In this document: in pieces, positions 33,001-36,000 of the stretch
Numbering within the stretch: the first letter of the stretch is position 1
How the letters are laid out: every line of letters starts with the position of its first letter
DNA from: Escherichia coli
GTDB lineage: Bacteria; Pseudomonadota; Gammaproteobacteria; Enterobacterales; Enterobacteriaceae
Strand: one strand, 5' to 3'
NCBI RefSeq assembly: GCF_003334785.1
Contig: NZ_QOWV01000002.1
DNA: 64,000 bases
Position numbers: made by a program

Positions 33001-36000
33001 TTAACAAAAGCGGTGCAATATGCAAGTTTTTATCATGCGTCACGGCGACGCAGCCCTCGATGCCGCCAGTGATTCCGTTCGTCCTCTGACCACTAATGGT
33101 TGTGACGAATCTCGCCTGATGGCGAACTGGCTGAAAGGTCAAAAAGTGGAAATCGAACGCGTTCTGGTGAGCCCGTTCCTGCGAGCCGAGCAAACACTGG
33201 AAGAAGTAGGGGATTGTCTGAACCTGCCTTCCAGTGCAGAAGTTCTGCCGGAGTTAACGCCCTGCGGCGATGTTGGTCTGGTCAGTGCCTATTTGCAGGC
33301 GTTGACCAATGAAGGTGTTGCTTCGGTACTGGTGATCTCTCACTTACCGTTAGTCGGGTATCTGGTTGCCGAGTTATGTCCGGGCGAAACGCCGCCTATG
33401 TTTACCACCTCGGCCATTGCCAGCGTAACGCTTGATGAAAGCGGAAACGGCACATTCAACTGGCAGATGAGCCCGTGTAATCTGAAGATGGCAAAAGCTA
33501 TCTGATGAGTTCCAAATTATGCCCAATGAGGTAGATTCATTGGGCATAATTGCTCATCAGGCAGCGGATATCTGTCAACCTCACTACTATCGAAGACTCT
33601 CCCCATCTATAAATAAAACACCTTTAACTTTCATTCGGAAAGTATTCTTCTGCGCGTATCTTGATTTTGCCCAAAGTTACATGTTGAAATGAATAATGTC
33701 TGTTTGACACTCATTATCATTTATTAATACAGATAATGGAGAAAATAGAGTTGAATAATCAGGCAGGACGTAATTGAAACTTGATTAAATTCTGGCTATA
33801 GTGTTTATATATTATATCGACAAAAGCGGGTTAATGCCAATCGCATTATATGTTCATTGTTTGTTTTTTAAGCTATTGGCATTCATTGTTGATATGCTTC
33901 CTGTTTTTTCTAAATATATATTTCGTGTTTTTTTAGAAGATCCTTAAGATAATCTTTCCCCTATCAATATATTAATTAAATCTACATTTACTCATTAGTA
34001 AAATTAAATTGAATCAGGGGAGTGAAAACATCACTATTCGACCCCACACCAACGAATACATTTTTTACGACCTGTTTTTTTGGATCGCATGCCGTATTCA
34101 ATGGCTGGGTATAAACATTGGCTATTGACTGAATCAATGTATTGCAATGTTTATATTTTAATTATTTATAGTTTAAGGACAAATAATGAGTAAGTTTGTT
34201 AAAACAGCTATTGCTGCGGCAATGGTGATGGGCGCGTTCACCTCTACGGCAACAATCGCTGCGGGTAACAACGGTACTGCACGTTTTTACGGCACCATTG
34301 AAGACTCAGTGTGTTCTATCGTTCCGGACGATCACAAACTGGAAGTTGATATGGGTGATATCGGTGCCGAAAAACTGAAAAATAACGGCACCACCACGCC
34401 GAAAAATTTCCAGATTCGCCTGCAAGATTGCGTATTTGATACTCAGGAAACAATGACCACTACCTTTACTGGTACCGTTTCTTCTGCAAATAGCGGCAAT
34501 TATTACACCATTTTCAATACCGATACCGGTGCGGCATTTAACAATGTTAGCCTGGCGATCGGTGACTCTCTGGGTACCTCTTACAAAAGCGGCATGGGTA
34601 TTGACCAGAAAATCGTGAAAGATACTGCCACTAATAAAGGCAAAGCGAAGCAGACTCTGAACTTTAAAGCCTGGCTGGTCGGCGCAGCTGATGCGCCAGA
34701 TCTGGGTAATTTCGAAGCAAATACCACCTTCCAGATTACTTACCTGTAAGGCATACCCCCATAGCGACACTGCTATGGGGTATTTAAATGGATTTTGACC
34801 GAACAAGAATAAAAACGGATAAAAACGTGTATGCCTGACCATTCTCTTTTTCGATTACGGATTCTTCCGTGGTGCATTGCGCTGGCAATGTCAGGGAGTT
34901 ATAGCAGTGTCTGGGCTGAAGACGACATTCAGTTTGATTCCCGTTTTCTGGAATTAAAAGGCGACACAAAAATTGATCTGAAGCGTTTTTCCAGCCAGGG
35001 GTATGTTGAGCCCGGAAAATACAATTTACAGGTTCAACTAAATAAACAGCCATTGGCGGAAGAGTACGATATTTACTGGTATGCTGGTGAAGATGACGTT
35101 AGCAAAAGCTATGCTTGTCTGACACCGGAACTGGTGGCGCAGTTTGGTTTAAAAGAAGACGTGGCGAAAAATCTGCAATGGAGCCACGATGGTAAATGCC
35201 TGAAGCCCGGTCAACTGGAAGGCGTGGAAATTAAGGCTGATTTAAGCCAGTCCGCATTAGTCATTTCACTACCGCAGGCTTACCTCGAATATACCTGGCC
35301 CGACTGGGATCCACCTTCTCGTTGGGATGATGGCATCTCCGGGATCATTGCGGACTACAGCATCACTGCGCAAACACGACACGAAGAAAATGGCGGCGAT
35401 GACAGTAACGAGATCAGCGGCAACGGGACGGTCGGGGTTAACCTGGGGCCATGGCGTATGCGCGCTGACTGGCAGACCAACTATCAACATACGCGCAGTA
35501 ATGATGATGACGATGAATTTGGCGGCGATGACACACAAAAAAAATGGGAGTGGAGTCGCTATTATGCCTGGCGGGCGTTACCGTCATTAAAAGCCAAACT
35601 GGCGCTGGGCGAAGATTACCTCAATTCCGATATTTTCGACGGTTTTAATTATGTTGGTGGCAGTGTCAGCACTGACGATCAAATGTTGCCTCCCAATCTG
35701 CGCGGCTACGCGCCAGACATTTCCGGCGTGGCACACACCACAGCAAAAGTGACCGTCAGCCAGATGGGGCGTGTGATTTACGAAACGCAGGTTCCGGCTG
35801 GACCGTTTCGTATTCAGGATCTTGGTGATTCCGTCTCCGGTACGTTGCATATTCGCATTGAAGAACAGAACGGCCAGGTGCAGGAATATGACATCAGCAC
35901 CGCCTCGATGCCATACCTCACTCGCCCAGGCCAGGTTCGCTATAAGATCATGATGGGACGTCCGCAAGAGTGGGGCCACCATGTCGAGGGGGGATTTTTC

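What the first reader, a model, noticed from the sequence alone, without database searches (positions are those of the whole stretch)
34753..34783. Stable hairpin between pilin and usher genes
A 12-bp GC-containing stem (one bulged C) sits in the 80-bp gap after the major subunit gene. In chaperone-usher operons such structures act as partial terminators or RNA-stability elements that set high pilin to low usher stoichiometry.
Basis: inference. Interest (0 to 1): 0.2.

Follow-up and report, generated by a model that had tools for sequence, protein, structure and literature searches.

The report
Conserved terminator-like hairpin after yfcV pilin gene
A real, evolutionarily maintained RNA hairpin sits just after the E. 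coli yfcV fimbrial subunit gene and most likely acts as a leaky terminator and RNA-protecting cap that keeps pilin message high and usher message low; this is an ordinary, textbook-type feature of fimbrial operons.

Summary
The window is E. coli fadIJ-sixA-yfcVUSRQPO. An 81-nt gap (34750-34830) separates yfcV (major fimbrial subunit) from yfcU (usher). It holds the hairpin ATACCCCCATAGC/GCTATGGGGTAT (34753-34783, -17.2 kcal/mol, z = -3.9).

Energy alone is unremarkable: it ranks in the top 1% of 41-nt windows. The comparative evidence is strong.
- All 27 distinct alleles from yfcV-like loci keep a hairpin 4-14 nt after the stop codon. This includes loci whose pilin is only 37% identical.
- The stem arms are more conserved (0.93/0.91) than the loop (0.54), the spacers (0.75) or third codon positions (0.76-0.79).
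- Three stem pairs show compensatory double changes.
- Wobble pairs favour the mRNA strand.
- The element is single-copy per genome, so it is not a REP-type repeat.

A U-rich tail follows in most alleles. It is strong in the O157, B2 and E69 types, weak in the K-12/window type (UAUUUAAAU), and absent in two divergent loci.

Best reading: a leaky intrinsic terminator and 3' exonuclease barrier that raises yfcV mRNA over yfcU. Function is inferred; no 3'-end data exist. The "bulged C" is a K-12-lineage substitution; the commonest allele has a perfect 10-bp stem. It is a new member of a known kind, of low interest.

The parts
34186..34749 (+). yfcV, major fimbrial subunit gene (187 aa; stop TAA 34747-34749), first gene of the yfc chaperone-usher operon
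   Evidence: ORF list. RefSeq annotation of an almost identical locus. Best NCBIfam match is StfA-like fimbrial major subunit, below the curated cut-off.
34753..34783 (+).
   Evidence: Sequence. Centroid fold -17.1 kcal/mol, z = -3.9.
34756..34781 (+). Conserved core stem-loop: CCCCCATAGC (34756-34765) / loop GACACT / GCTATGGGG(T) (34772-34781). It is a perfect 10 bp in the commonest allele. In the window the basal C34756-G pair is lost because position 34781 is T.
   Evidence: Allele table. Pair counts: 93.5% of cells paired, against 38-49% when the 3' partner is slid; 3 pairs carry double changes. Arm identity 0.93/0.91 against loop 0.54.
34781..34789 (+). U-rich tail UAUUUAAAU directly 3' of the core stem; a weak U-tract in this allele
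   Evidence: Not called by the consensus terminator scan. Tail score 3.43, the 95.6th percentile of all 15-mers in the window. The equivalent tails in the O157 and E69 alleles (UUUUUAAAU, UUUUUUAG) are called terminator-like.
34812..34830 (+). Conserved translation-initiation region of yfcU (ACGGAT...ACGTGT before the ATG; GGA at 34817-34819)
   Evidence: Conserved block in the alignments. Column identity 0.87. The Shine-Dalgarno assignment is inference.
34831..37476 (+). yfcU, outer-membrane usher (881 aa, intact in this window)
   Evidence: ORF. NCBIfam NF011812 at 1886 bits, cut-off 972. K-12 EMG2 has a stop at codon 579; the window does not.

Best explanation
The hairpin forms in the sense-strand RNA just after the yfcV stop codon. 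Together with the U-rich stretch that follows, it most likely acts as a leaky Rho-independent terminator. A fraction of polymerases stop at about 34784-34790 and produce a short monocistronic yfcV mRNA. The 3' stem-loop of that mRNA also blocks 3'-to-5' exonucleases. The remaining polymerases read through into yfcU-S-R-Q-P-O. The result is much more pilin message than usher, chaperone or minor-subunit message. Shown here: the structure exists, is single-copy, is under purifying and compensatory selection on the mRNA strand, and carries a terminator-grade U-tail in most alleles. Inferred: that it terminates, how efficiently, and that it stabilises yfcV mRNA. The K-12/window allele (stem -17.2 kcal/mol, tail UAUUUAAAU) and the commonest sampled allele (stem -20.6 kcal/mol, tail AUUUAAAU) have weaker tails than the O157, B2 and E69 alleles. 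Termination efficiency therefore probably differs between lineages.
For: Fold: -17.2 kcal/mol, z = -3.9 and -4.9. Position: the stem starts 4-7 nt after the stop codon of the first, major-subunit gene, on the sense strand. Conservation: 27 distinct alleles were gathered with anchors outside the hairpin (the usher N-terminus, the pilin C-terminal codons). All keep a hairpin of -15 to -30 kcal/mol. This includes L093 and L096, whose pilin is only 37% and usher 53% identical and whose stem sequence differs. Column identity is 0.93/0.91 for the arms, 0.54 for the loop, 0.75 for the spacers and 0.76-0.79 for third codon positions. Covariation: G-C to A-U in the B2 type, C-G to U-A in the E69/L046 type, and changes at the basal pair. 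Five double-changed cells were seen, a count reached by 0 of 500 shuffles, and 93.5% of cells are paired against 38-49% when slid. Strand: in L027, L093 and L096, which carry wobble pairs, the sense strand folds 2.9, 4.4 and 7.2 kcal/mol better than the antisense strand. Tail: 7 of the 13 allele types scored have tail scores above the 98th percentile of 15-mers in the window, and the O157 and E69 alleles are called terminator-like by the scan. Not a repeat: one place per genome in 3489 E. coli genomes, apart from one extra place in one genome. Circumstantial expression data: yfcV alone is listed as induced by TosR in CFT073 while most other yfc genes were unchanged or below the read cut-off (PMC5956150). 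The same holds for bicyclomycin, BolA and the STEC HUS group. Precedent: papA mRNA ends in an RNase-resistant terminator structure (PMC5927463).
Against: No direct 3'-end, Northern or half-life data exist for this locus; the Adams et al. 2021 supplements have no yfcV entry. The window allele fails the consensus terminator scan because only 4 of the 8 bases after the stem are T. Its tail is at the 87th percentile relative to the neighbouring AT-rich intergenic DNA, and the commonest allele is at only the 71st. Two divergent loci (L027, L093) keep the hairpin but have no U-tract. The conserved element is therefore the hairpin, not the full terminator. Sequence diversity is modest: 4 of the 10 stem pairs never vary, so the covariation statistics rest on few events. 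The tail-score formula was recalled from memory (d'Aubenton-Carafa / TransTermHP style).
Confidence: 0.62

Rival explanations
1. The hairpin is purely an RNA-stability or processing barrier. Transcription does not stop here. The polycistronic mRNA is cut downstream by an endonuclease, or terminated by Rho further on, and 3' exonucleases trim back to the hairpin, leaving a long-lived yfcV mRNA.
For: The hairpin, not the U-tract, is the universally conserved part. L027 and L093 have no U-tract, and the commonest allele has a weak one. The window allele is not called by the terminator scan. Differential decay is documented for pilin operons such as papBA (PMC5927463). yfcV is induced by bicyclomycin, so Rho acts on this locus.
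Against: Most allele types have a tail above the 98th percentile immediately after the stem. Two alleles satisfy the terminator consensus. A U-tract is not needed for an exonuclease block, so its frequent presence argues for termination as well.
Confidence: 0.22
2. The structure controls yfcU translation. The 5' flank GGCAUAC (34750-34756) pairs with GUAUGCC (34829-34835) across the yfcU start codon, so the local hairpin and a long-range helix compete to open or close the usher's initiation site.
For: The 96-nt MFE and centroid folds contain this 7-bp long-range helix.
Against: The complementarity is lost in the O157-type (GUGAUAC) and B2-type (GCUGUUC / AGAUGCC) alleles, while the local hairpin is kept. 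It therefore looks like a chance feature of the K-12-type sequence.
Confidence: 0.04
3. The inverted repeat works at the DNA level, as a binding site for a dimeric regulator or as part of a dispersed palindromic element, and the RNA fold is incidental.
For: Most alleles are perfect Watson-Crick palindromes that fold equally well on both strands.
Against: It is single-copy per genome and has no other copy in the window. Compensatory changes preserve pairing rather than half-site sequence. The loop and spacing vary. Divergent alleles use G.U pairs that are mismatches on the other strand and at the DNA level. It has no Rfam or REP resemblance.
Confidence: 0.04
4. It is a chance hairpin with no function.
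For: About 1% of all 41-nt windows in this region fold as well.
Against: It is conserved above neutral background and shows covariation across loci down to 37% pilin identity.
Confidence: 0.02

Closest known systems
3' terminator/stabiliser hairpin of papA mRNA in the pap (P-pilus) operon of uropathogenic E. coli
   Same: A stem-loop directly after the major pilin cistron of a chaperone-usher operon. It gives an abundant, stable pilin transcript relative to the downstream assembly genes (PMC5927463). The assignment of Yfc and Pap to the same fimbrial clade, pi, is my own knowledge and was not tested here.
   Different: In pap, the pilin cistron is preceded by papB, and the stable papA mRNA is made by RNase E cleavage upstream plus a 5' stem-loop. 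yfcV is the first gene of its operon, about 680 nt after the separate sixA gene, so no such upstream processing step is implied. In yfc the gene after the hairpin is the usher itself, not a papH-type terminator subunit.
Canonical E. coli intrinsic (Rho-independent) terminators used as intra-operon attenuators
   Same: A GC-rich base (CCCC/GGGG), a 9-11 bp stem, a 3-6 nt loop and a U-rich tail on the sense strand, located in an intercistronic gap. The O157 and E69 alleles meet the consensus.
   Different: The window allele's tail (UAUUUAAAU) is sub-consensus. Two divergent loci have no tail at all. The stem begins only 4-7 nt after the stop codon, so a terminating ribosome would cover its 5' arm. 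The idea that translation could therefore modulate termination is inference.
Differential mRNA decay in other fimbrial operons (for example CFA/I cfaB; Jordi et al. 1993, cited in PMC5927463 but not read here)
   Same: The concept of a hairpin after the major subunit gene that sets relative expression within the operon.
   Different: It belongs to a different fimbrial class and has no sequence relationship. I could not read the primary paper.
Internal terminators that set stoichiometry in ABC-transporter operons (PMC9045158, title and abstract only)
   Same: The same logic: an abundant extracytoplasmic component gene, then an internal hairpin, then low-copy membrane machinery genes.
   Different: An unrelated system in a different organism; the analogy is functional only.

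Membership tests
Intrinsic (Rho-independent) terminator | Stable GC-rich stem-loop in the nascent sense-strand RNA | tested here: met
   -17.2 kcal/mol, z = -3.9. The stem has a CCCC/GGGG base. Wobble pairs favour the sense strand in the divergent alleles.
Intrinsic (Rho-independent) terminator | U-tract of about 7-9 nt immediately 3' of the stem | tested here: inconclusive
   The window allele UAUUUAAAU has 4 T in the first 8 bases and is not called; its tail score is at the 95.6th percentile. The O157 and E69 alleles are called. L027 and L093 have no U-tract.
Intrinsic (Rho-independent) terminator | Factor-independent release producing a discrete RNA 3' end in the U-tract | not testable with these tools
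   No 3'-end data for yfcV in the Adams et al. 2021 supplements. The Dar & Sorek supplements are not held.
pap-type processed pilin mRNA with differential stability | Hairpin at the 3' end of the major pilin cistron | tested here: met
pap-type processed pilin mRNA with differential stability | Upstream regulatory cistron (papB-like) removed by RNase E cleavage, leaving a protective 5' stem-loop | tested here: not met
   yfcV is the first gene of the operon. The upstream neighbour is the unrelated sixA, about 680 nt away. RNase E cleavage itself is not testable here.
pap-type processed pilin mRNA with differential stability | Pilin mRNA with a longer half-life or higher abundance than the distal cistrons | not testable with these tools
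   Only circumstantial evidence: yfcV alone is reported as induced in several transcriptomes.
Dispersed palindromic repeats (REP/BIME-like) | Many copies per genome in intergenic regions | tested here: not met
   One place per genome in 3489 genomes (a single extra place in one genome), with the yfcV or fimbrial-protein gene end under every listed match. There is only the self-match in the window.
Any curated Rfam RNA family | Covariance-model match at or near the gathering score | tested here: not met
   Only chance-level hits (E > 3), none overlapping 34750-34830.
   NCBIfam: StfA-like subunit; usher NF011812 at 1886 bits (cut-off 972); StfD-like chaperone. RefSeq names the genes yfcV, yfcU and yfcS.

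The most novel reading that the evidence does not exclude
The hairpin could be a translation-sensitive, lineage-tuned attenuator. Its 5' arm starts only 4-7 nt after the yfcV stop codon, so a ribosome terminating close behind RNA polymerase would prevent folding. Read-through into the usher genes would then be licensed only when yfcV is being efficiently translated. Natural polymorphisms in the stem base and U-tract (K-12 UAUUU, commonest allele GAUUU, O157 UUUUU, E69 UUUUUU, and none in L027/L093) would set different pilin:usher ratios in different E. coli lineages. This may be relevant to yfcV's use as a marker of uropathogenic strains.
Probability: 0.08. Interest if true: 0.4.

Novelty: new member of a known kind. 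Interest (0 to 1): 0.15.

Why it matters
The element explains how a cryptic but widespread E. coli fimbrial operon (yfc, whose yfcV gene is used as a uropathogen marker) can make far more rod subunit than assembly machinery from one promoter. It also warns that yfcV transcript levels in RNA-seq or qPCR are probably a poor proxy for expression of the whole operon. The allele series found here has the same stem but U-tails ranging from none to six U. That gives a ready-made natural panel for measuring how tail quality sets read-through. Beyond that, it is a routine example of a well-understood design.

Tried and rejected
1. Rfam scan of 33000-36000 at E up to 10: nothing relevant.
2. Consensus terminator scan of the window: the hairpin is not called because its T-tail is too weak. 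The same scan does call the O157 and E69 alleles.
3. Energy ranking across the whole window: only top 0.9%, so energy is not a sufficient argument.
4. Dispersed-repeat hypothesis: rejected, because the element is single-copy.
5. Long-range pairing across the yfcU start codon: rejected, because it is not conserved.
6. Internal promoter for yfcU in the gap: TTTAAA-16-TATAAT in the O157 allele. The K-12 equivalent, TTTAAA-16-AAGAAT, matches 8 of 12 and is below the scan threshold (read; not called). Such hits are expected by chance in AT-rich DNA (2.1 expected in shuffles). Left as a passing note.
7. Direct 3'-end evidence: the Adams et al. 2021 supplements have no yfcV or yfcU entry. The Dar & Sorek 2018 supplements are not held. 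The TosR paper's supplements give only a binding-motif table.
8. Literature search for 'yfcV + terminator': no relevant study.
9. Primary paper on CFA/I differential decay: not held.
10. Six of the metagenome pattern hits (L021, L056, L100, L104, L105, L119) have no similarity to yfcV or yfcU. They were discarded as chance matches to the 21-nt pattern.

Full report
**What is there.** The window is an E. coli chromosome segment carrying fadI-fadJ-sixA and the yfcV-U-S-R-Q-P-O chaperone-usher operon on the + strand.
- yfcV (34186-34749) encodes a 187-aa StfA-like major fimbrial subunit.
- yfcU (34831-37476) is an 881-aa usher (NCBIfam NF011812, 1886 bits against a cut-off of 972).
- yfcS is a StfD-like chaperone.
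- The yfcV-yfcU gap is 81 nt (34750-34830).
- Within the gap, 34753-34783 reads ATACCCCCATAGC GACA(C)T GCTATGGGGTAT.

**The fold.** ViennaRNA gives -17.2 kcal/mol for the 10-pair core. Z-score is -3.9 against dinucleotide shuffles, and -4.9 in a 96-nt context.

**Is it more than chance?** Not on energy alone. In a scan of all 41-nt windows on both strands of the 64-kb window, 0.9% fold as well or better. The simple terminator scan does not call the hairpin, and Rfam has nothing. The case rests on comparison with other loci.

**Comparative evidence.** I collected related loci with anchors that do not include the hairpin:
- E. coli genomes by BLAST;
- one genome per species, using the usher N-terminus;
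- metagenome contigs, using only the last pilin codons TTCCAGATTACNTAYCTNTAA.

After discarding six chance pattern hits, there are 27 distinct versions of the stop-to-hairpin region. The findings are as follows.

*Retention.* Every version has a hairpin of -15 to -30 kcal/mol starting 4-14 nt after the stop codon. This holds even for L093 and L096, where the pilin is only 37% and the usher 53% identical to the window's. Their stem has a different sequence (CCCCTGCTGCA/TGCGGCAGGGG).

*Conservation profile.* Mean pairwise column identity is 0.93 and 0.91 for the two arms. It is 0.54 for the loop, about 0.75 for the flanking spacers, and 0.76-0.79 for third codon positions of the neighbouring genes. 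This is the classic profile of a constrained stem with a free loop. Loops seen include GACACT, GACACC, TTTCGG, TGCAAT, CGCAAT, AGCAAT, ATCGC, TTCG and CTCG.

*Covariation.* On a 17-allele alignment, 93.5% of pair cells are standard pairs, against 38-49% when the 3' partner is slid by 1-3 columns. Three pairs carry changes on both sides: G-C to A-U in the B2 type, C-G to U-A in the E69/L046 type, and changes at the basal pair. That makes five double-changed cells, a count that 0 of 500 shuffles reached. Diversity is modest, since 4 of the 10 pairs never vary. This is supportive rather than overwhelming evidence.

*Strand.* Most alleles are perfect palindromes and give no strand information. The three that carry wobble pairs (L027, L093, L096) fold 2.9, 4.4 and 7.2 kcal/mol better on the mRNA strand than on the antisense strand. 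This points to selection on the sense RNA rather than on the DNA.

*Copy number.* The element occurs once per genome in 3489 E. coli genomes, apart from one extra place in one genome. In every listed match the annotated feature under it is the yfcV (or fimbrial protein) gene end. The window holds no other copy. It is therefore not a REP-type repeat.

**The tail.**
- After the core stem the window has UAUUUAAAU (34781-34789).
- The commonest allele among the sampled loci (43 of them, against 27 for the K-12 type) has a perfect 10-bp stem, CCCCCATAGC/GCTATGGGGG, followed by AUUUAAAU.
- Other alleles have much better tails: O157 type UUUUUAAAU, E69 type UUUUUUAG, L094 UUUUUAAAU, L035 UUUUAUAAAU and B2 type UUUAUAAAU.
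- The same consensus scan that misses the window allele calls the O157 and E69 alleles terminator-like.

I also applied a decaying-weight tail score. The formula was recalled from memory, in the style of d'Aubenton-Carafa and TransTermHP. By this score:
- 7 of the 13 allele types scored lie above the 98th percentile of all 15-mers in the window;
- the window allele is at the 95.6th percentile;
- the commonest allele is at the 87th;
- two divergent loci (L027, L093) have no U-tract at all.

The hairpin is therefore universal, while the U-tract is frequent but not universal.

**Mechanism.** The best-supported reading is a leaky intrinsic terminator that doubles as a 3' exonuclease barrier. Part of the transcription from the yfcV promoter ends in the tail, giving a short hairpin-capped yfcV mRNA. 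The rest continues into the usher, chaperone and minor-subunit genes. This matches the need for thousands of rod subunits per usher. It has a direct precedent in papA mRNA, which ends in an RNase-resistant terminator structure (PMC5927463).

Published transcriptomes fit this reading, but only circumstantially:
- TosR over-production in CFT073 raised yfcV by log2 5.2, while most other genes of the yfc and similar operons were unchanged or below the read cut-off (PMC5956150).
- yfcV alone is also listed after bicyclomycin treatment, after BolA induction and in HUS-associated STEC.

No 3'-end mapping for this locus could be found, probably because the operon is silent in laboratory K-12. That last point is my own knowledge and was not checked here.

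**Rival readings.**
- *Pure stability or processing barrier without termination.* This is the main rival, at a confidence of about 0.2. It is favoured by the two tail-less loci and by the weak tail of the commonest allele. It is disfavoured by the good tails in most allele types.
- *Translational switch.* The helix GGCAUAC (34750-34756)/GUAUGCC (34829-34835), which covers the yfcU ATG, appears in the 96-nt fold. It is not conserved in the O157 or B2 alleles, so I reject it.
- *DNA-level palindrome or pure chance.* Both are disfavoured by the covariation, the wobble pairs, the single-copy status and the conservation.

**Comparison with known systems.** The element works like the papA 3' hairpin and like intra-operon attenuating terminators in general. 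It does not fit the full pap scheme, because yfcV is the first cistron. There is no papB-like upstream gene to be cleaved away, and the next gene is the usher rather than a PapH-type subunit. As an intrinsic terminator, the window allele meets the stem criterion but only marginally meets the U-tract criterion. Release itself is untested.

**Novelty and interest.** I found no study of this particular hairpin, but the kind of element is textbook. I rate it a new member of a known kind, with interest of about 0.15. The only mildly novel possibility is that the closeness of the stem to the stop codon, together with the natural tail polymorphisms, makes this a translation-sensitive, lineage-tuned attenuator. 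I put the probability of that at about 0.08.

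Noticed in passing
window 34831-37476 (yfcU); differences at 36567 and 36846: Over 14,851 nt (fadL to prmB) the window differs from K-12 strain EMG2 at only 2 positions, both inside yfcU. 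One of them is K-12's premature stop at codon 579 (window C, K-12 G). The window therefore carries an intact 881-aa usher where K-12 has a pseudogene.
   Followed up: partly
window 34783-34810; L002 2185-2212: A promoter-like element lies directly after the hairpin. It is TTTAAA-16-TATAAT (10 of 12) in the O157-type allele. In the window it is the weaker TTTAAA (34783-34788)-16-AAGAAT (34805-34810). It could re-initiate transcription for yfcU, but such hits are expected by chance in AT-rich DNA.
   Followed up: partly
window 34750-34756 with 34829-34835: There is 7-nt complementarity (GGCAUAC/GUAUGCC) between the base of the hairpin region and the yfcU start codon. It appears in the 96-nt MFE fold. 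It is present only in K-12-type alleles and is not conserved in the O157 or B2 types.
   Followed up: yes
window 40608-40648: A strong GC hairpin (GGCAGGGGC...GCCCCTGCC, -23.4 kcal/mol) lies in the 70-nt gap between the convergent genes yfcO (ends 40604) and smrB (ends 40675). It has no obvious U-tract on either strand. It is probably the shared operon-end terminator or stabiliser.
   Followed up: no
window 33514-33554 and 32953-32993: There are two further very stable intergenic hairpins. One (-22.5 kcal/mol, 16 bp) lies immediately after the sixA stop at 33505. The other (-21.7 kcal/mol) lies between fadJ and sixA. They are likely terminators of the neighbouring genes.
   Followed up: no
L093 (about 1041-1150) and L096, metagenome contigs: These are distant yfc/stf-like operons (pilin 37% and usher 53% identical) with the same pilin-hairpin-usher layout. 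The stem has a different sequence. In L096 three consecutive wobble pairs are tolerated only on the sense strand. The source organisms were not identified.
   Followed up: partly
E. coli strain BL12 NZ_CP079780.1 1544920-1546547 (hit H1): The 851-nt yfcV-yfcU query matches this strain in two pieces separated by an IS1B-family insertion, so the locus is interrupted there.
   Followed up: no
E. coli population, yfcV locus: There are three deeply diverged allele classes of yfcV plus its intergenic region: K-12-like at 95% identity or more, O157-like at about 84%, and B2/UPEC-like at about 81% with only partial DNA matches. 1259 of the 5426 complete genomes gave no match in megablast ('near') mode. 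The hairpin is the best-conserved non-coding piece across the three classes.
   Followed up: partly
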